A stretch of 64,000 bases of DNA from an uncultured Rickettsiales bacterium (GTDB taxonomy: Bacteria > Pseudomonadota > Alphaproteobacteria > Rickettsiales > UBA1997), in the NCBI GenBank assembly GCA_944391075.1, contig CALXSG010000002.1:27869-91868 (forward strand). Reading direction: 5' to 3'. Position numbers and translations under genes: made by a program. Positions 11,507 through 18,609 of the stretch are shown here, one piece after another. Under the pieces are notes generated by a model. That model was not told where the DNA came from. It saw nothing but the letters and a program-made list of their open reading frames with translations, and did not search any database. Positions within the stretch are counted from its first letter, which is position 1. The number at the start of each line of letters is the position of its first letter.

Positions 11507-13267
11507 ATGGCGTTTATTATTTTAGAGTCGCAAGACTTACAATTTATTTTTAGTATGAATTTAAATTTAGAAAAATTTAAAAAGGAACTTTTGTTCCTAC
11601 CGCTTGGTGGTAGTGGTGAAATAGGACTTAACTGTAATTTATATCATTATAATGGCAAATGGTTAATAGTTGATATGGGAATTGGTTTTACTGATTCTAT
11701 ACCTGGTGTAGATGTTATAGCACCTGATATAAGTTTTATAAAAGAAAATTTAGAAAATTTCTTAGGAATTGTTATAACTCATATTCATGAAGACCATATT
11801 GGTGCAATTCAATATTTATGGGAAGAATTAAAATTGCCAATTTATGCATCAAAATTTGCTTCATTATTTTTAAAAGAAAAACTTAGTGAATATCAATTTT
11901 CAGAAGAAGTTAAAATTATAGAAATTGAAGACGGACAAAAATTATCATTAAAACCTTTTGACCTTGAATTTATTAATTTAACTCATTCCACGCCTGAAAT
12001 GAATGCAATTCTTATTAAAACACCAAAAGGAAATATTTTACATACAGGTGATTGGAAATTTGAAGAAAAACCAATTATTGGTAAAACATCAAATAAAAAA
12101 AGATTAAAACAATTGGGAAATAAAGAAAATATTTTAGCAATGATTTCAGAATCAACAAATATTTTTCAACACTCTAATACAAAAAATGAAGTTGATTTAT
12201 TAAAAAATCTAAAAAAGATAGTAAAAAGTAATAAAAAAGGTTTAGTTGTTTGTGCAATTTTTGCTTCAAATATTTCAAGAATAATTACATTATCACTTGC
12301 TGCAAAAGCTGCTGGACGAAAAATTGGTATAATTGGCCGATCAATTTACAGAATATTGAAGGTTGCTGACGAAATGAATTACCTTCCTAAGGGTTTAGAA
12401 TTTGTTTCAGAAGAAGAATTAGACAAATATGACAAAAAAGAATTATTAATAATTTCAACAGGTTGTCAAGGAGAACCTAATTCAGGACTTGCAAAATTAG
12501 CCAATGACTTATGCAAAAGAATAAAATTAAATTCTGGTGATACAATTATTTTTTCTTCAAGAATTATACCTGGCAATGAAAAAGCTATACACTCTTTATA
12601 TAACAAATTGTCAGAAAGAGATGTTAAAATAATAAATGCAGAAAATGAATTTGTACACTTATCAGGACATTACACACGAGACGAACTTATAGAAATGTAT
12701 AAATTAGTTAAACCTAAAATGGTTATTGCGGTACATGGTGAAGAAATGCATTTAGCAGAACATAAAAGAGTTGCAAAAGAGTGTGGCGTCTCTACTGTTA
12801 TTAAAGGAAAAAATGGTGATTTAATAAAAATAGATTCAAAAGATGTACAAAAAAGCAAAATTATCGATCATATATCTTTAACAAATGTTGCAGTAGACGG
12901 CAAAAGATTATTACCATTATCTAGCCACATTATTAATGAAAGGAAAAAATTAGCTGAATCTGGCATTATTTTATTAATATTAAAAGTTGATAGACTATAT
13001 AAATTATTAGACAAACCATCTATTACAGCAGTTGGAAATTATGATTTAATGCACGAGAAACTAATGAATGAAATGTTAGAAGATGAAATCAAAACTGCTT
13101 ATGACGAAGCTTTAATAAAATTATCTAATCAAGAAAATGCTGACGAATTCAAAGAAGACGAAAAGAAAGAAGCTTTTTTAATTAAGGAAGTAAACAAAAA
13201 AATTACACATATACTAAAACTAGATATGGGTAAAAAACCATTTATGGTTATTAAGATTATTAAATAA
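11507..13267 (+). CDS. rnj: Ribonuclease J
   Basis: Metallo-beta-lactamase motif 'THIHEDHIGA', then beta-CASP and C-terminal domains. The true start is probably Met17 (nt 11555, 'MNLNLEKF'). Confidence 0.85.
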   Translation: MAFIILESQDLQFIFSMNLNLEKFKKELLFLPLGGSGEIGLNCNLYHYNGKWLIVDMGIGFTDSIPGVDVIAPDISFIKENLENFLGIVITHIHEDHIGAIQYLWEELKLPIYASKFASLFLKEKLSEYQFSEEVKIIEIEDGQKLSLKPFDLEFINLTHSTPEMNAILIKTPKGNILHTGDWKFEEKPIIGKTSNKKRLKQLGNKENILAMISESTNIFQHSNTKNEVDLLKNLKKIVKSNKKGLVVCAIFASNISRIITLSLAAKAAGRKIGIIGRSIYRILKVADEMNYLPKGLEFVSEEELDKYDKKELLIISTGCQGEPNSGLAKLANDLCKRIKLNSGDTIIFSSRIIPGNEKAIHSLYNKLSERDVKIINAENEFVHLSGHYTRDELIEMYKLVKPKMVIAVHGEEMHLAEHKRVAKECGVSTVIKGKNGDLIKIDSKDVQKSKIIDHISLTNVAVDGKRLLPLSSHIINERKKLAESGIILLILKVDRLYKLLDKPSITAVGNYDLMHEKLMNEMLEDEIKTAYDEALIKLSNQENADEFKEDEKKEAFLIKEVNKKITHILKLDMGKKPFMVIKIIK

Positions 13268-13282
13268 TACACAACACAAAAA

Positions 13283-13304
13283 TAGACTCCTTATTAGGAG
13301 CCTA
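13283..13304. terminator. Bidirectional hairpin between convergent rnj and the 418-aa gene
   Basis: TAGACTCC-TTATT-AGGAGCCTA stem-loop followed by CTTTTT on the + strand; A-rich on the other side. Confidence 0.6.
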
Positions 13305-13328
13305 CTTTTTATTTAATATTATAAATTA

Positions 13329-14585
13329 TTATTTACTTCTTGTATTATCACTCTGTTTATTAGATAACAAAGAAGGAACGGAAAGAACAAGTTTCTTAGT
13401 TTTATCTATACCTTTCTTAATATTATCCTGATTTTTTATTACAGCTCCACCTATAGCAACAAGACCAGCAACTACCGATAGGGTTATAATATGACCAGAA
13501 GTTATGATATCATCACCGAGAAAATCATTTACACCTTTTACTATAGAAGAATTGTCAAAAACTTCTCTCATGTGTTCAAAACCTTTACTAAAATCATTAG
13601 ATAATTTAAAATTAGGATCATTAAATTTATTTGCTATGGCATTATTACAACTTGATAGATCACGTACAGAAGTAACCTCACTAATCATCTTTTTCAATTC
13701 TTCCCCTGCTTCTTTTGATAATGTACCATTGTCTATTCCTGCTTGAATTTTTTCGATATATAAAGCTTTGAGTTTTATTATATTCTCTGTTACAGAAACA
13801 TTACCAGGTGTAAATCCATTATCCGCATCATTAAAATATCCTTGACCTGTTTTTTCATCTACGAATCCAACCGTCACTTTGTTACTAGAAACAACTTTTT
13901 TATAAACAGTTATATCTGTTTGAGAAGCTGTACCTTTAAAGCCATTAAGATTATTTGATGTTACATTCATATCAGAATCTACAATTAACTCAGATTGCCT
14001 TGTGCTTGATGTAGTGGCTGGATCTAATGTTTGAAATTTTAATATTAATTTACCACTTTCATCAGTTGTACCATTTGCAGTATACTCCTTACCATTTATA
14101 AATACTTTATATTCAATTTGTTTTGTTGTATCTGGATTATCTTCTTTATAATAATAACCTACAAGATTTCCATTACTGTCTTTAATAGCAAAAGCATCTT
14201 TTATAGTTTTACCGTAATATCCCAGATTTTTACCATTTTCAGTTGTACTAGGTATACCTAAAAATTTTTCATATGTATCTGTTTGACTTCCTTTCTCTGG
14301 AAATTTATTTTTATCATCAGGCATAACACTAGTATTATCATAATCCCAATTTCCATTTGAATCTTGTGTAGCAGTTGCAACATCTAGATATGTTCCATCG
14401 CTCTGAAGAATATTATTTCCTTTTGCAGCAAGAAGATCTTCTTTTACCTGATCCATAATACTTTCAAACTCATCACTATAAACTTCTGCTCCGTGCTTAC
14501 CAACCAAGAGAGTAGCAACAGTAGCAACTGCTGCACCACCCGCAACTCTTTTTATAGTTTTGTCATTATCATTATTATTAGCCAT
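13329..14585 (-). CDS. Membrane protein, paralog 1 (N- and C-terminal Gly/Ala-rich TM segments, Thr/Gly/Asn-rich beta-type centre)
   Basis: Starts 'MANNND', then TM 'VAGGAAVATVATLLVG'. C-terminal TM 'ITLSVVAGLVAIGGAVI' and a basic tail. Shares 'DSNGNLVGYYYK', 'FINGKEY' and 'VFDNS..VNDFLGDDI' blocks with the gene at 15016-16173. Confidence 0.7.
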   Translation of the reverse strand: MANNNDNDKTIKRVAGGAAVATVATLLVGKHGAEVYSDEFESIMDQVKEDLLAAKGNNILQSDGTYLDVATATQDSNGNWDYDNTSVMPDDKNKFPEKGSQTDTYEKFLGIPSTTENGKNLGYYGKTIKDAFAIKDSNGNLVGYYYKEDNPDTTKQIEYKVFINGKEYTANGTTDESGKLILKFQTLDPATTSSTRQSELIVDSDMNVTSNNLNGFKGTASQTDITVYKKVVSSNKVTVGFVDEKTGQGYFNDADNGFTPGNVSVTENIIKLKALYIEKIQAGIDNGTLSKEAGEELKKMISEVTSVRDLSSCNNAIANKFNDPNFKLSNDFSKGFEHMREVFDNSSIVKGVNDFLGDDIITSGHIITLSVVAGLVAIGGAVIKNQDNIKKGIDKTKKLVLSVPSLLSNKQSDNTRSK

Positions 14586-14616
14586 ATTTTTAAATGATTA
14601 TTAACTTATAAGATAT

Positions 14617-14644
14617 ATTATAACATTTTTTTTATATTTATCAA
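14617..14644 (-). promoter_or_regulatory. Near-consensus sigma70 promoter of paralog 1
   Basis: On the minus strand: TTGATA (14644-14639), 16 nt spacer, TATAAT (14622-14617). About 25-nt leader to the ATG at 14585. Confidence 0.5.
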
Positions 14645-14959
14645 GAAAAATTTACACTTTATAATATAAAATAAATAAGATAATTTATGATGAGTAGTTA
14701 TTATAGATTATTTTACAAAAATAAAAATATTCATTAATATTAATAATAATCTTTGTCTATTTTTTACAAGTGACTATATAAAAATAAATTTATATTTTTT
14801 TACAATTTTCACTATCTACTATTAAAAATAAAAGATATAAATTTAAATATAAATTATTTAAGAAAATAATATATAAGAAAAATTGTTAAAATAAATTTTA
14901 TATGTAAATTCTAAAATTTTATAAAATTTAATAATTATTTATAAAAATATACCATAAAT

Positions 14960-14988
14960 ATAGCTCATCAAATAAACTGATGAGCTAT
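14960..14988 (-). terminator. Hairpin terminator downstream of paralog 2
   Basis: Perfect 11-bp stem ATAGCTCATCA/TGATGAGCTAT with a 7-nt loop, T/A-rich flanks, 28 nt past the stop of the 15016-16173 gene. Confidence 0.6.
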
Positions 14989-15015
14989 ATTTTTATAATA
15001 TTTTATTTAATATTA

Positions 15016-16173
15016 TTATCTTGTTTTTGAAATACTTCCATATGAAGAATTAAGGCTTGTTGCACCAAAAACTTTCTTTTTATTATTATCACTACTACTA
15101 CTTAATAATTTTGTTGCAAGTGCAGCTGTACCACCAACAGCTAAGGCACCTACTGTACAAATACCAATCATACCAATAGTTGATGGATCAGCAATATTTG
15201 CACCAAGAAATTTATTAATATTATCAAAAACATCTTGAGCACTTGTTGTAACATCATTTACTCCAAGAGATAATTTATTTAAAAGAGTTCCACCACTTTC
15301 TAACTTCTGTTTTACAGCTTCTATATACTTATCAACAGTCTTATATTTTTCTATGTTAACACCTTCAACCATACTTTGATACTCTTTAAGAGCTGCTGCA
15401 TCTATAGCTTTATCACCTAAGACATTATTAGTTGAACCTACTTGTGCTAAAATAGTTTTCTGAAGCTCTGTGAGATTTGCTCTTGATTCTACTATACCGT
15501 TAGTGTTAAGACCATTTGGATCATATAAGAATATATTCTTAGGATATGTCTCAGAAACTTCTTGATAACCAACTACATTTCCTCCTTTCATAATAGCCTG
15601 ATAATTCTTTTCTTCAGTACCAATATTTCCAGAAAATTCTTTTCCATCAATTTTAAAGTCAGCTGTATTTTTACTTGAATTAACAGTACCAAGTACATTG
15701 TCACCACTTTTTAATTTACCATCAGCTCCAACCTCAACATTATCATACCACTTGCCATTGATATATAATTTACCATTAGCTTGACCTTCAGTAGGAGCTT
15801 TATATAAACCTATAAGATTACCTTTCTCATCTGTTATTTCTTTAAATTTTTCGGTATTATTAGTATCTAAAGAATACTGAGCTGTTACTGTGTCACCATT
15901 AGAATTAGTATATGTCCATTTCCACGATGTAGTTCCCCCTTGGGTTGTATAGTCACTAACTGTAGCTATAGGTTCACCATCTGAACCTATTATCTCAGGA
16001 CCTTCAAAGGTATTTGCAGTTGCATTAGCTGCTGCTAATAATGCATTTTTTTGTTCTTCAGTTAACTCTAATGCTTTATCACCTTTAACACAAGCAGTAA
16101 CACCTAAAGCTGCTAATGTTAAACCACCTGCTGTATAACCTATTGCTGTACTTTTTTTATTATTATTTGCCAT
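15016..16173 (-). CDS. Membrane protein, paralog 2 (same architecture as 13329-14585)
   Basis: Starts 'MANNNKK', then TM 'TAGGLTLAALGVTA'. Blocks 'EKGNLIGLYKA', 'YINGKWY' and 'VFDNINKFLGANI'. C-terminal TM 'MIGICTVGALAVGGTAALA' plus a Ser/Lys tail. Confidence 0.7.
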   Translation of the reverse strand: MANNNKKSTAIGYTAGGLTLAALGVTACVKGDKALELTEEQKNALLAAANATANTFEGPEIIGSDGEPIATVSDYTTQGGTTSWKWTYTNSNGDTVTAQYSLDTNNTEKFKEITDEKGNLIGLYKAPTEGQANGKLYINGKWYDNVEVGADGKLKSGDNVLGTVNSSKNTADFKIDGKEFSGNIGTEEKNYQAIMKGGNVVGYQEVSETYPKNIFLYDPNGLNTNGIVESRANLTELQKTILAQVGSTNNVLGDKAIDAAALKEYQSMVEGVNIEKYKTVDKYIEAVKQKLESGGTLLNKLSLGVNDVTTSAQDVFDNINKFLGANIADPSTIGMIGICTVGALAVGGTAALATKLLSSSSDNNKKKVFGATSLNSSYGSISKTR

Positions 16174-16205
16174 ATTTTTTACTTTTATTATTAATATATG
16201 ATACC

Positions 16206-16234
16206 ATTATAACACAATTTTATTTAATTATCAA
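16206..16234 (-). promoter_or_regulatory. Near-consensus (extended -10) sigma70 promoter of paralog 2
   Basis: On the minus strand: TTGATA (16234-16229), 17 nt spacer, TGT-TATAAT (-10 at 16211-16206). About 26-nt leader. Confidence 0.5.
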
Positions 16235-16398: not shown

Positions 16399-18609
16399 TT
16401 ATATAAATTTTACAAAATCTTGAATAATTGTTTTTACACCACAAGTTTTGAAAGCTATTGTAAGTTTTTTTCCATCAGTTTTTATAACAACACCTTCACC
16501 AAATGTAGGGTGTATAACTCTTTTTGCAACATTTTTCATAGCAAACTCTTCATTTCTTTGTATAATGGGTTCACCATCATCGTCAAAAGAATATGAAAGA
16601 TTTTTAGGTGTATAATAATTATTATATCTACCAACTCTTTGATTTTCATATTCTTCATCTTCATTTTTGTATTCTTCTCTAAATATATCTTTACTAATTA
16701 TATTTAAATTTTCTTCTGGTAATTCTTTAATAAATCTAGATGGTTGAGTTATTCTTAATTCATTATAATCAAATCTAGTCTTTGAATAACTAATAAATAA
16801 TTTCTTTTTAGCTCTTGTAATTGCAACATAAGCTAGTCTTCTTTCTTCTTCTAAACCATTCCTTTCATCAACGGATTTAGGGCTTGGAAAAATACCCTCT
16901 TCCCAACCTGGTAAAAATACTGTATCAAACTCTAAACCCTTTGCCGAATGAATTGTCATTATATTTACAGAGTTATTATTTACAGAATCTGTTTTGTCAG
17001 TAGCTAAGCTAACATATTCTAAAAACTCTGACAAACTTTGAAATTCTGCTAAGCCCCTAATAAATTCATTAATATTTTCAATAGCACTTTTTGATTCATC
17101 TGTATTTTCTGCTATAAGACTATCAATATAACCACTTCCATATAATATATCTCTTGTTAATGTAATATGATCTTTTTCACTTAATTGTTTGCTCCATTCT
17201 CTAATATCATTAATGAATTGTAAAATATTATCAGCGGTTTTGCCTTTAATCACTTCCGTAATACATAAATCTTCACATACATCTAAAATATTAACTTTTT
17301 GTCCTTTAACTTCATTTAATATTTTACCTAACGTAACATTACCAACACCCCTTCGTGGTACATTTATAATTCTTTCAAAAGCTAAAAAATCAGAGTGATT
17401 TTTAACTAATTTAAGATATGCTATACAATCTTTAATTTCTTTTCTATCATAAAATTTAAAACCACCAACAATTTTATAAGGTATAGATTGTGTAATAAAT
17501 ATTTCTTCAAAAATTCTTGTTTGATAACCGGCTCTAACTAAAATAGCTATATCTTTATATCGAATATCTTTAATTAAATCTAAAACTTTACTAGAAATAG
17601 CATATGCTTCTTCTTTATCCCTTTCAAAGCAATCAAGACAAACCTTATCACCAATATTATTAGTATCAGTCCATAAAGTTTTTTTATGTCTATCTCTATT
17701 ATTAGCAATTACAGCCGAAGCTACACTTAATATATTAGATGTAGAACGATAATTTCTTTCTAATCTAATTATTTTTGTATTTTCAAAATCCTTTTCAAAC
17801 TTTAAAATATTTTTAATTTCTGCACCTCTCCAACCATAAATTGATTGATCATCATCACCAACACATGTAATAAAAATATTATTTTTTACTCCTAAACCAG
17901 AAATCATTTTTAGCCAAGTATTTTGAATTGCATTTGTGTCTTGATATTCATCGACTAAAATATAAGCAAACTTATTAATATAATTTTGTAAAACTTCCGG
18001 ATATTGTTTAAAAATTTCAACATTGTATAATAGTAAATCGCCAAAATCACAAACATTTAATTTTTTGCATCTATCTTGATACTCTTTATATATTTCTTTA
18101 ATTTCAGGAAAATAATTAAAATCAATACCAAAATTCAAAACATCGTCAACAGTATAACCTTTGTCTTTCCATTCATTAATTTTATTAGCATAATTTTTTG
18201 CTGGAAATTCTTTAATATCAATATTTAAGTCCAACAATATTTGCTTAATTAATCGTTTTTGATCATCAGGATCCATAATAGTAAAATCACTTGTTAAAGA
18301 AACTAATTCAGCATGTTGTCTTAAAATTCTATTAGCTATTGAATGAAAAGTATTCAACCACATTGATGAAATATCTTTCATAAGAATATTAGAAACTCTT
18401 TCTTGCATTTCTCTTGCGGCTTTATTTGTAAATGTAACAGCAAGAATTTCGGAAGGATAAGCTTGTCCAGTTTCTAATAAATAAGCAATTTTAGATGTTA
18501 ATACTTTTGTTTTTCCAGTACCAGCACCAGCTAATACAAGCAATGGGCCATCATTATAAACAACAGCCTCTTTTTGCTCGGTATTTAATTCATCTAAAAT
18601 ATTTGACAT
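16399..18609 (-). CDS. uvrD: UvrD/PcrA-type SF1 DNA helicase
   Basis: Walker A 'GAGTGKTKVLT', 'LVDEYQDTN', 'TIHSAKGLEFD', 'YVAITRAKKKL', and the C-terminal 'GEGVVI' Tudor-like end. Confidence 0.9.
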   Translation of the reverse strand: MSNILDELNTEQKEAVVYNDGPLLVLAGAGTGKTKVLTSKIAYLLETGQAYPSEILAVTFTNKAAREMQERVSNILMKDISSMWLNTFHSIANRILRQHAELVSLTSDFTIMDPDDQKRLIKQILLDLNIDIKEFPAKNYANKINEWKDKGYTVDDVLNFGIDFNYFPEIKEIYKEYQDRCKKLNVCDFGDLLLYNVEIFKQYPEVLQNYINKFAYILVDEYQDTNAIQNTWLKMISGLGVKNNIFITCVGDDDQSIYGWRGAEIKNILKFEKDFENTKIIRLERNYRSTSNILSVASAVIANNRDRHKKTLWTDTNNIGDKVCLDCFERDKEEAYAISSKVLDLIKDIRYKDIAILVRAGYQTRIFEEIFITQSIPYKIVGGFKFYDRKEIKDCIAYLKLVKNHSDFLAFERIINVPRRGVGNVTLGKILNEVKGQKVNILDVCEDLCITEVIKGKTADNILQFINDIREWSKQLSEKDHITLTRDILYGSGYIDSLIAENTDESKSAIENINEFIRGLAEFQSLSEFLEYVSLATDKTDSVNNNSVNIMTIHSAKGLEFDTVFLPGWEEGIFPSPKSVDERNGLEEERRLAYVAITRAKKKLFISYSKTRFDYNELRITQPSRFIKELPEENLNIISKDIFREEYKNEDEEYENQRVGRYNNYYTPKNLSYSFDDDGEPIIQRNEEFAMKNVAKRVIHPTFGEGVVIKTDGKKLTIAFKTCGVKTIIQDFVKFI

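What the first reader, a model, noticed from the sequence alone, without database searches (positions are those of the whole stretch)
13329..16234. Tandem pair of divergent paralogous membrane proteins with matching near-consensus promoters and their own terminators
Both proteins share the same layout: MANNN start, a Gly/Ala-rich TM, a Thr/Gly/Asn/Asp-rich beta-type centre, a helical region, a second Gly-rich TM and a basic Ser/Lys tail. The centre has shared blocks (D(S/E)xGNL(V/I)G(Y/L)Y.K; (F/Y)INGK(E/W)Y) and the helical region ends (V)FDN..(V/I)N.FLG. Their amino-acid and codon composition (many G, T, A, S; GC-richer) differs from the Lys/Ile/Asn-rich neighbours. Each has a TTGATA-N16/17-TATAAT promoter, a ~25-nt leader, a long AT-rich upstream region (430 and 225 bp) and a hairpin terminator. 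That profile fits abundant, independently expressed envelope or surface proteins, possibly antigen-like and diversifying. I recognise no known family.
Basis: seen in the sequence. Interest (0 to 1): 0.6.

Follow-up and report, generated by a model that had tools for sequence, protein, structure and literature searches.

The report
Hypervariable orphan envelope-protein gene array
Two neighbouring genes of an uncultured, very AT-rich human-gut 'Rickettsiales' bacterium encode related membrane-anchored proteins of a family found nowhere else; they carry the two strongest-looking promoters in the genome and differ enormously between otherwise near-identical strains, the pattern expected for an exposed protein in an arms race.

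Summary
Window 15016-16173(-) (385 aa, 'B type') and 13329-14585(-) (418 aa, 'C type') are true paralogues (BLASTP E 6e-6; profile-profile E 1.7e-17). Both have a weak N-terminal hydrophobic helix, an acidic beta-rich core, a helical region, a strong C-terminal TM and a basic tail. Each has its own TTGATA-N16/17-TGnTATAAT promoter and hairpin terminator. That promoter pattern occurs exactly twice in the 1.16-Mb genome, at these two genes.

No Pfam, NCBIfam, PHROG, PADLOC, PDB-sequence or Foldseek match was found. Only 10 clusters among 1.84 billion representative proteins belong to the family. It is absent from eight other species of the same genus.

In conspecific metagenome contigs the flanking uvrD, rnj and pgi are 95.5-99.5% identical, while the slot holds one to three family members that are 21-82% identical. 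Recombination junctions lie at the start codon, and a duplicated uvrD 3' end sits inside some arrays. Site models on nine B alleles support positive selection (about 6% of codons, omega about 8.5, LRT 112; the uvrD control gave LRT 0.1).

Best reading: a strain-variable, probably abundant envelope protein set with an extracytoplasmic head. Surface exposure, abundance and function are untested. It is a new family of a known kind of locus.

The parts
16206..16234 (-). Promoter of the B-type gene: TTGATA, 17-nt spacer, TG-n-TATAAT
   Evidence: One of only two such sites in the genome. Conserved as the 'position-1' promoter directly after uvrD in L005, L006, L008 and L011.
15016..16173 (-). B-type family member, 385 aa (P0002). 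By residue: N-flank 1-10, weak TM1 11-29, helix 39-53, beta core 57-232, helices 234-323, TM2 about 330-358, basic tail
16087..16143 (-). B TM1 (aa 11-29), Gly/Ala-rich, marginal hydrophobicity (mean KD over 19 residues = 1.53). It may be a signal anchor or a cleavable signal peptide.
15874..16047 (-). B hypervariable block 1 (aa 43-100), with selected sites N43, D74, T76, T77, G79, G80, S83, Q99
15604..15672 (-). B hypervariable block 2 (aa 168-190), with selected sites K168, D172, S181, N190
15307..15468 (-). B hypervariable block 3 in the helical region (aa 236-289), with selected sites E236, N250, V251, E275, K282, Q289
15115..15171 (-). B TM2 (aa 335-353, KD19 1.86), followed by a tail of net charge +5 with the conserved KKKVFGATSLNSS...KTR motif
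14956..14992 (-). Terminator hairpin of the B gene (16-bp stem, -20.7 kcal/mol)
   Evidence: The same hairpin follows the A and B genes in L005.
14586..15015 (.). 430-bp AT-rich spacer (GC about 11%). It contains the B terminator and the C promoter and is a repeated module of the arrays.
   Evidence: No Rfam match.
14617..14644 (-). Promoter of the C-type gene: TTGATA, 16-nt spacer, TG-n-TATAAT
   Evidence: Promoter and leader are the same as those of L005's second-position gene.
13329..14585 (-). C-type family member, 418 aa (P0001). By residue: TM1 6-29, helix 37-53, beta region 57-267, helices 269-356, TM2 363-392, basic tail
14499..14555 (-). C TM1 (aa 11-29, KD19 1.42)
13437..13493 (-). 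C TM2 (aa 365-383, KD19 2.21), followed by a tail of net charge +6
13278..13309 (.). Terminator hairpin of the C gene, shared with the convergent rnj gene and so bidirectional

Best explanation
The locus between uvrD and rnj is a hypervariable slot that holds one to three members of an orphan protein family. As far as the public data show, the family is confined to this one species-level lineage of an uncultured, roughly 26% G+C human-gut 'Rickettsiales'. Wherever the rnj side of the slot was captured (five haplotypes), a strain carries at least one member of the A/B/D superclade and one member of the C superclade. The window holds the minimal set, B plus C.

Each gene is its own transcription unit, with the best sigma-70-type promoter in the genome and a hairpin terminator. 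Each protein is inserted so that the strongly basic C-terminal tail stays in the cytoplasm. The C-terminal TM anchors it. A 290-380-residue acidic ectodomain lies outside the cytoplasm and consists of a short helix, a beta-hairpin-rich head and a helical stalk. The weak N-terminal helix acts either as a second anchor or as a signal peptide.

The head and stalk are the part an antagonist sees. The antagonist could be host antibody, a eukaryotic host cell, a phage or a competitor. The locus evades it in two ways:
1. Replacement and reshuffling of whole alleles or gene modules by homologous recombination. The conserved pieces that allow this are the uvrD 3' end, the promoter/spacer/terminator modules, the MANNN-TM1 5' end and the TM2-tail 3' end.
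2. Positive selection on a small set of ectodomain codons.

Shown here: paralogy, family restriction, locus variability, recombination junctions, elevated omega with a positively selected site class, and promoter uniqueness. Inferred: topology, high expression, exposure to an antagonist, and the identity of that antagonist.
For: Paralogy and shared architecture.

Orphan status:
- No hit in Pfam, NCBIfam, PHROGs, PADLOC or PDB sequences.
- No Foldseek match at E<=1e-3 in PDB or BFVD for either model.
- Only 10 representative clusters among 1.84 billion proteins.
- Nothing in GTDB genome contigs or JGI metagenomes.
- Nothing in 40 relatives, including 8 congeners.
- In two congeners the region downstream of uvrD holds other genes.

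Hypervariability: uvrD, rnj and pgi are 95.5-99.5% identical at the protein level between W, L005, L006 and L008, while the family members are 21-82% identical. Arrays found are 385+418 (window), 376+387+366, 369+454+376, 375+387+491 and 384+pilin.

Rates (ML codon model): pairwise omega is 0.75-1.17 for B, 0.42-0.49 for C and 0.31-0.56 for A, against 0.02 for uvrD and rnj. C-type alleles from different strains have dS of about 1, while the flanks have dS of about 0.1. These are therefore old alleles that were swapped in.

Site models on 9 B alleles: M2a beats M1a with LRT 112 (p 5e-25), with 6.4% of codons at omega 8.5. 18 of the 19 sites with posterior >0.9 lie in the predicted ectodomain and none in a TM. 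The same code on uvrD gives LRT 0.11. The test stays significant in each third of the gene with its own tree (LRT 51, 37, 19.5), and the three trees disagree, which indicates intragenic recombination.

Recombination junction: upstream of the ATG, the window's B gene is 95-98% identical to the upstream region of L005's A gene. From the ATG onward it matches L005's B gene. L011 and L024 carry a duplicated uvrD 3' end plus a position-1 promoter in front of an extra member.

Promoter uniqueness. Terminators.

Topology: tail charge +5 to +7, ectodomain charge -9 to -24, no internal hydrophobic peak.

Purifying selection on the C-type stalk, TM2 and tail (omega 0.11-0.19) shows that the proteins are functional.
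Against: - There is no expression or protein evidence.
- The organism has BamA, so a helically anchored protein would normally face the periplasm. The periplasm is not an obvious place for antibody-driven selection.
- Gene-wide omega is not above 1 by ML. My first NG86 estimates of 1.5-2.3 were inflated by the AT-rich, transition-biased composition.
- Site-model LRTs are known to give false positives under recombination. My implementation also keeps relative branch lengths fixed and uses NEB posteriors.
- TM1 is only marginally hydrophobic and falls below threshold in some members.
- AlphaFold confidence is low outside the beta core (overall pLDDT 61-64).
- The selecting agent is unknown.
Confidence: 0.55

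Rival explanations
1. The proteins are inner-membrane proteins that face the periplasm and determine strain-specific susceptibility or immunity to agents that cross the outer membrane. Such agents include phage DNA-injection machinery, bacteriocins or contact-dependent toxins, and entry exclusion for the T4SS or pili. Under this reading the variation is driven by phages or competitors, not by host immunity, and the proteins never reach the cell surface.
For: The organism is diderm, with BamA. The topology has two helical anchors and a basic cytoplasmic tail. The cytoplasmic tail motif is conserved across types, as expected for a protein that stays in the inner membrane. According to earlier notes the genome is rich in T4SS and pilus genes, and one related array has a pilin gene in the C position.
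Against: No PADLOC or PHROG similarity. No toxin, phage or conjugation genes lie in or beside the slot. Known immunity and exclusion proteins are usually small and sit next to their cognate system. A genome-unique consensus promoter suggests a bulk structural protein rather than an immunity factor.
Confidence: 0.22
2. The proteins are exported substrates, for example of the rvh type IV secretion system. The basic C-terminal tail would be the secretion signal, and the moderately hydrophobic Gly/Ala-rich helices would insert into a host or vacuolar membrane. The variation would then reflect an arms race with a eukaryotic host cell.
For: The C-terminal tail is basic and conserved. TM1 has unusually low hydrophobicity. 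From general knowledge, exported membrane effectors tend to have weakly hydrophobic TMs. Earlier notes report T4SS genes and other hypervariable, eukaryote-like giant proteins in the same genome.
Against: TM2 is strongly hydrophobic (KD19 1.9-2.4) and would be captured by the Sec/YidC pathway. No effector-like eukaryotic domain is present. The tail follows a TM rather than a soluble domain. Nothing links the locus to T4SS genes.
Confidence: 0.1
3. The genes are cargo of a mobile element or phage remnant, such as superinfection exclusion or lysogenic-conversion genes, and not native envelope genes.
For: Gene content at the slot varies between strains. A GTA-type tail gene lies 2 kb away. In some haplotypes (L011, L008) a conserved GC-richer stretch follows the array, with only a sub-threshold Rfam hit.
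Against: There is no integrase, transposase or phage gene in the slot. GC3 is typical of the genome. Both flanks are housekeeping genes with a fixed order in the contigs that capture both sides (W, L005, L006, L014). There is no PHROG hit. The neighbouring GTA gene is itself conserved (98% DNA identity).
Confidence: 0.06
4. The genes are lineage-specific ORFs under relaxed constraint, drifting toward loss and without a real function.
For: Gene-wide omega is close to 1 in the B type. The family is restricted to one lineage.
Against: Every full-length allele aligned or translated here (about 40) has an intact ORF, including lineages with saturated dS. Motifs, TMs and tails are conserved. Omega is 0.11-0.19 in the C-type stalk, TM2 and tail. 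A site class with w0 of about 0.07 covers half of the B codons. Promoters and terminators are conserved.
Confidence: 0.04

Closest known systems
Orientia tsutsugamushi 56-kDa type-specific antigen (TSA56)
   Same: Both come from organisms labelled Rickettsiales. TSA56 is a membrane protein reported as highly variable and very abundant (about 20% of the proteome), with discrete variable domains set in conserved sequence that define strain types (PMC11918436). Here there are likewise about three hypervariable blocks between conserved blocks, a very strong private promoter, and alleles that distinguish strains with near-identical housekeeping genes.
   Different: No sequence relationship was detected by any library search. 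I did not compare directly with a TSA56 sequence. TSA56 is one gene, whereas this is a tandem set of two deep paralogue classes whose copy number varies. Abundance, surface location and antigenicity are untested here.
Anaplasma Msp2/P44 and Ehrlichia OMP-1/P28 families (Pfam PF01617, Surface_Ag_2)
   Same: Tandem paralogous envelope-protein genes in Rickettsiales that are diversified by recombination.
   Different: There is no PF01617 hit. Those proteins are beta-barrel porins that vary by gene conversion from silent cassettes within one genome. Here there are no extra copies or fragments in the genome, the anchors are helical, and the variation is between strains.
Borrelia OspA (single-layer beta-sheet outer-surface lipoprotein)
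   Same: OspA gave the best, though non-significant, Foldseek hits for the B-type model (E 4e-3, probability 0.33). Both have a long meander of antiparallel beta hairpins. OspA is a variable surface antigen.
   Different: TM-score is about 0.1, and the C-type model does not hit OspA at all. The Cys in the VTAC sequence of the B type is not conserved in A- or C-type members, so there is no lipobox. These proteins also have a helical stalk and a C-terminal TM.
Allelic-replacement loci bounded by conserved housekeeping genes (e.g. flagellin fliC central domain, pneumococcal pspA or the capsule locus between dexB and aliA)
   Same: Flanks and gene ends are conserved and serve as recombination handles. 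The central parts differ deeply. Old alleles coexist within one species.
   Different: The protein family is unrelated. In addition, the promoter/spacer/terminator modules and a duplicated 3' end of uvrD are themselves part of the shuffled unit.

Membership tests
Any curated protein family (Pfam-A, NCBIfam, PHROGs, PADLOC) | Score above the family's threshold in a profile HMM search | tested here: not met
   Best Pfam E-value 0.07 (13.5 bits against a cut-off of 27). Best NCBIfam E-value 0.005 (16.9 bits against 229). PHROGs E>0.1. PADLOC no hit.
Borrelia OspA-like lipoproteins | Conserved lipobox Cys after the signal peptide | tested here: not met
   Cys28 (sequence VTAC) is present only in B-type and some A-type members. 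Other A-type members have Tyr, and C-type members have no Cys.
Borrelia OspA-like lipoproteins | Structural match to the OspA fold | tested here: inconclusive
   Foldseek E 4e-3, probability 0.33, TM about 0.1 for the B model. OspA is absent from the hits of the C model.
Rickettsiales Surface_Ag_2 porins (Msp2/P44/OMP-1, PF01617) | PF01617 beta-barrel domain | tested here: not met
   No hit. The models show helical anchors and no barrel.
C-terminal sorting-signal proteins (LPXTG, PEP-CTERM, GlyGly-CTERM) | Signature motif + TM + short basic cluster at the extreme C-terminus, recognised by NCBIfam/TIGR models | tested here: not met
   No NCBIfam hit even at E<=10. The tail after the TM is 31-40 residues long and has its own conserved motif. 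I did not test whether the genome encodes a sortase-type enzyme.
Two-TM periplasmic sensor proteins (chemoreceptor or histidine-kinase type) | Cytoplasmic signalling module after TM2 (HAMP, MCP signal, HisKA) | tested here: not met
   Only a 31-40-residue disordered basic tail follows TM2, and there is no Pfam domain.
Orientia TSA56 | Sequence homology to TSA56 | not tested
   No TSA56 sequence was available to me. The library searches gave no such hit. The resemblance is in behaviour only.
Strain-variable exposed envelope antigens (a functional kind) | Far faster protein evolution than the flanks, with a positively selected site class in the extracytoplasmic part | tested here: met
   Omega is 0.4-1.2 against 0.02 for the flanks. 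M2a against M1a gives LRT 112, and 18 of 19 selected sites lie in the ectodomain.
Strain-variable exposed envelope antigens (a functional kind) | Demonstrated surface exposure and high expression | not testable with these tools
There are no proteomic data. Only the promoter quality and the predicted topology bear on this.

The most novel reading that the evidence does not exclude
One A/B/D-type protein and one C-type protein together form the dominant, serotype-defining envelope coat or spike of this uncultured human-gut Rickettsiales lineage. The head would be a beta-hairpin fold without a solved relative, displayed at the cell surface on a helical stalk and held by glycine-rich helical anchors rather than a beta-barrel or a lipid. 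It would be the main target of host (IgA) or protist-host recognition. That would make it both a natural strain-typing locus and a handle for capturing the organism.
Probability: 0.2. Interest if true: 0.7.

Novelty: new variant of a known kind. Interest (0 to 1): 0.5.

Why it matters
Uncultured, small-genome 'Rickettsiales' of the human gut are known only from metagenomes, and nothing is known about their envelope or how they meet the host. This locus is the clearest candidate for their main variable envelope component, for four reasons: its promoter type is unique in the genome, the family is an orphan, alleles differ deeply between strains with near-identical housekeeping genes, and there is statistical support for positive selection in the extracytoplasmic part.

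It offers a high-resolution strain marker for metagenomics. It gives a defined antigen for testing IgA coating or for raising capture reagents. It is also a compact example of modular allele shuffling, in which promoter, spacer, terminator and even a neighbouring gene's 3' end act as recombination handles. If the head domain has a new fold, it is a worthwhile structural target.

Tried and rejected
- Further paralogues or silent cassettes in the genome: none found. The weak profile hit in a 1059-aa ORF is an RND/AcrB-type transporter and the match is a chance one.
- GTDB genome contigs and JGI metagenome contigs: no relatives. A third word-indexed search with a family profile added nothing.
- The 1031-aa representative hit P0028 is a repetitive LPXTG-type Gram-positive surface protein that matches only a G.Y.V.Y..D.DGN hairpin motif. 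It is not a family member.
- Lipoprotein reading (VTAC lipobox): rejected because the Cys is not conserved.
- NG86 dN/dS above 1: withdrawn as a headline after the ML model with kappa and F3x4 gave omega of about 1. It was replaced by site models with a control gene.
- The site model on the C type failed numerically because only three alleles had DNA.
- Rfam on the locus and spacer: no match.
- Foreign-origin reading: not supported, because GC3 is typical.
- Literature searches on gut Rickettsiales and on TSA56 topology gave nothing specific to this family.
Full report
**What is there**

On the minus strand of the window, between uvrD (16399-18609) and the convergent rnj (11507-13267), lie two ORFs. 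The first is 15016-16173 (385 aa, P0002, here called 'B type'). The second is 13329-14585 (418 aa, P0001, 'C type'). They align end to end at 24% identity (BLASTP E 6e-6). Profiles built from each one's relatives match with 98.9% probability and E 1.7e-17 over 314 columns, so the paralogy is real.

Each gene has a TTGATA-N16/17-TATAAT promoter with a TG extended -10 element, matching 11 of 12 consensus positions. Each has a leader of about 25 nt and a hairpin terminator, at -20.7 and -11.9 kcal/mol. The second terminator is shared with rnj.

The pattern TTGATA-N13-15-TGnTATAAT occurs exactly twice in the 1.16-Mb, 25.9% G+C genome. Both occurrences are here, against 0.2 expected by chance.

- The extra G+C sits in codon positions 1 and 2 and comes from the Gly/Ala/Thr-rich composition. 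GC3 is ordinary.
- The lack of a Shine-Dalgarno sequence is typical of this genome.

**Architecture**

AlphaFold2 models of both proteins have low overall confidence (mean pLDDT 61 and 64) but are confident in the beta core (pLDDT 85-90). They give the same plan:
- an N-terminal hydrophobic helix;
- a short helix;
- a run of antiparallel beta hairpins (B residues 57-232, C residues 57-267);
- four to five helices;
- a C-terminal TM helix;
- a disordered tail.

Hydropathy shows a marginal TM1 (mean KD over 19 residues 1.4-1.8, below 1.4 in some members) and a clear TM2 (1.9-2.4). There is no hydrophobic peak between them. The ectodomain is acidic (net charge -9 to -24) and the tail is basic (+5 to +7).

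By the positive-inside rule, which is established knowledge, the tail is cytoplasmic and the central domain lies outside the cytoplasm. Whether TM1 is a second anchor or a cleaved signal peptide cannot be decided here.

The genome encodes BamA, so the cell is diderm. Read plainly, the head then lies in the periplasm unless the protein is moved further out.

**No known relatives**

- Pfam, NCBIfam, PHROGs and PADLOC gave nothing near threshold.
- A family profile against all PDB sequences gave nothing below E 1.8.
- Foldseek against PDB and BFVD gave no hit at E<=1e-3 for either model. The best hits for B were OspA variants with TM about 0.1, and C did not reproduce them.
- An exhaustive HMMER search of 1.84 billion representative proteins found ten clusters. 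One of them is an unrelated repetitive Gram-positive surface protein that matches only a hairpin motif.
- Nothing was found in GTDB genome contigs or in JGI metagenomes.
- None of 40 relatives has the family, including eight species of the same genus.
- In two congeners (uvrD 93% and 78% identical), the region downstream of uvrD carries rpsB-tsf-pyrH, or a pilin gene followed by rpsF, rpsR and rplI.
- The genome has no further copies or fragments.

**The locus is hypervariable within one species**

Public metagenome contigs share the flanks almost perfectly. The uvrD, rnj and pgi proteins are 95.5-99.5% identical and flank dS is 0.10-0.24. The same slot nevertheless carries different sets of family members:

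| Source | Members in the slot (aa) |
|---|---|
| Window and L014 | 385/386 + 418/420 |
| L005 | 376 + 387 + 366 |
| L006 | 369 + 454 + 376 |
| L011 | 375 + 387 + 491, and the contig ends there |
| L008 | 384 + a pilin gene, then thrS instead of rnj |

Members are 21-82% identical to one another.

A tree of 44 sequences shows two deep superclades. One is A/B/D, found on the uvrD side in one to three copies. The other is C, found next to rnj in one copy, with three deep allelic lineages.

Many contigs that carry these genes are only 1.3-3 kb long. That fits assemblies breaking at a variable, repeat-containing locus.

**How it varies: recombination**

- Upstream of its ATG, the window's B gene is 95-98% identical to the upstream region of L005's A gene (the position-1 promoter and leader). 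It is only 53-72% identical to the upstream region of L005's B gene.
- From the start codon onward the relationship flips.
- Promoter types therefore go with position while the coding sequences move.
- L011 and L024 carry, inside the array, a duplicated 46-55-codon 3' end of uvrD, followed by a position-1 promoter and an extra D-type member.
- C-type alleles from different strains have dS of about 1 beside flanks with dS of about 0.1. They are old alleles that have been exchanged, not recent divergence.
- Trees for the three thirds of the B gene disagree.

**How it varies: selection**

My first Nei-Gojobori estimates gave dN/dS of 1.5-2.3 for B alleles. A maximum-likelihood codon model with kappa and F3x4 frequencies showed these were inflated by the base composition:

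| Gene or type | ML omega |
|---|---|
| B type | 0.75-1.17 (not different from 1) |
| C type | 0.42-0.49 |
| A type | 0.31-0.56 |
| uvrD and rnj | 0.02 |

By region, the C-type stalk, TM2 and tail are under purifying selection (omega 0.11-0.19), while its head is at 0.5.

I then wrote M0, M1a and M2a site models and ran them on nine B alleles with DNA:
- M2a beat M1a by LRT 112 (p 5e-25).
- 51% of codons fell at omega 0.07, 42% at omega 1 and 6.4% at omega 8.5.
- 19 sites had posterior above 0.9. Eighteen lie in the predicted ectodomain, none in a TM, and they cluster at residues 43-99, 168-190 and 236-289.
- The same code on six uvrD alleles gave omega 0.023 and LRT 0.11.
- Splitting B into thirds, each with its own tree, kept the result (LRT 51, 37, 19.5).

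Caveats: recombination inflates such tests, relative branch lengths were kept fixed, and the posteriors are NEB.

**Interpretation**

The shown facts are as follows:
- an orphan family that is functional, given intact ORFs in every allele examined and conserved anchors, tails, motifs and signals;
- a private consensus promoter type;
- an extracytoplasmic head;
- modular allele shuffling;
- positively selected head and stalk sites.

Together they fit a strain-variable, probably abundant envelope protein set at an interface with an antagonist. I put this reading at about 0.55.

The main open question is where the head ends up. The strongest rival (0.22) keeps it in the periplasm, as a strain-specific determinant of susceptibility or immunity to phages, bacteriocins or exclusion systems. 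Lesser rivals:
- a T4SS-exported membrane effector (0.10);
- mobile-element cargo (0.06);
- decaying ORFs (0.04).

Earlier notes of this scan supplied the organism label (uncultured human-gut 'Rickettsiales'). They also report that the same genome holds other hypervariable giant proteins, phase-variable pilins and rvh-type T4SS genes. That is useful context, but I did not re-test it.

**Comparison with known systems**

In behaviour, the closest analogue is Orientia's TSA56. It is an abundant, highly variable membrane protein with discrete variable domains that define strain types (PMC11918436). Allelic-replacement loci bounded by conserved genes are a second analogue. Membership in any known family was tested and not met (see the membership table). 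I therefore class this as a new variant of a known kind of locus, built from a new protein family.

**Limits**

DNA was available for only 3-9 alleles per type. No multimer modelling was possible. The selecting agent is unknown.

Noticed in passing
L011:6243-6383 and L024:1260-1427: Inside the array of two related strains sits a duplicated copy of the last 46-55 codons of uvrD (the Tudor-like C-terminus). It is followed by a copy of the position-1 promoter and an extra 491-aa D-type family member. The neighbouring gene's 3' end is therefore part of the shuffled module.
   Followed up: partly
L024:1621-4708: A 570-aa ORF begins as a D-type family member (about 330 aa) and then switches abruptly to unrelated sequence. 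Small genes follow, and at least one is WXG100-like (Pfam E 5.7e-6, 26.9 bits, just under the 27.3 cut-off). None of these has a homologue in the window's genome. This is probably a chimeric metagenome scaffold, or possibly a strain-specific insertion. G+C does not discriminate between the two.
   Followed up: partly
L008:7276-8070: In one haplotype the position of the C-type gene is taken by a type IV prepilin-like gene (264 aa), and thrS follows instead of rnj. A congener (G008) also has a pilin gene directly downstream of uvrD.
   Followed up: no
L011:8100-8340 and L008:6760-6800: After the last terminator of these arrays comes a shared motif (ATCTAAA(A)CCC..AGTTAGA). In L011 a GC-rich stretch of about 200 nt follows. 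The only Rfam hit is far below threshold (STnc490, 23 bits against 56). This could be the end of an inserted element or a structured RNA.
   Followed up: partly
window 13278-13309: The terminator hairpin of the C-type gene also scores as a terminator on the plus strand for the convergent rnj gene, so it is a shared bidirectional terminator.
   Followed up: yes
whole genome (G000): Only about 15% of ORFs of 200 aa or more have an AGGA/GGAG/GAGG motif at -20 to -4, and G enrichment at -10 to -8 is weak. Translation initiation in this organism seems largely independent of Shine-Dalgarno pairing.
   Followed up: partly
public assemblies: Many contigs that carry family members are just one gene long (1.3-1.5 kb). 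This suggests that assemblies break at the repeated spacer and terminator modules, or because several strains coexist in a sample.
   Followed up: no
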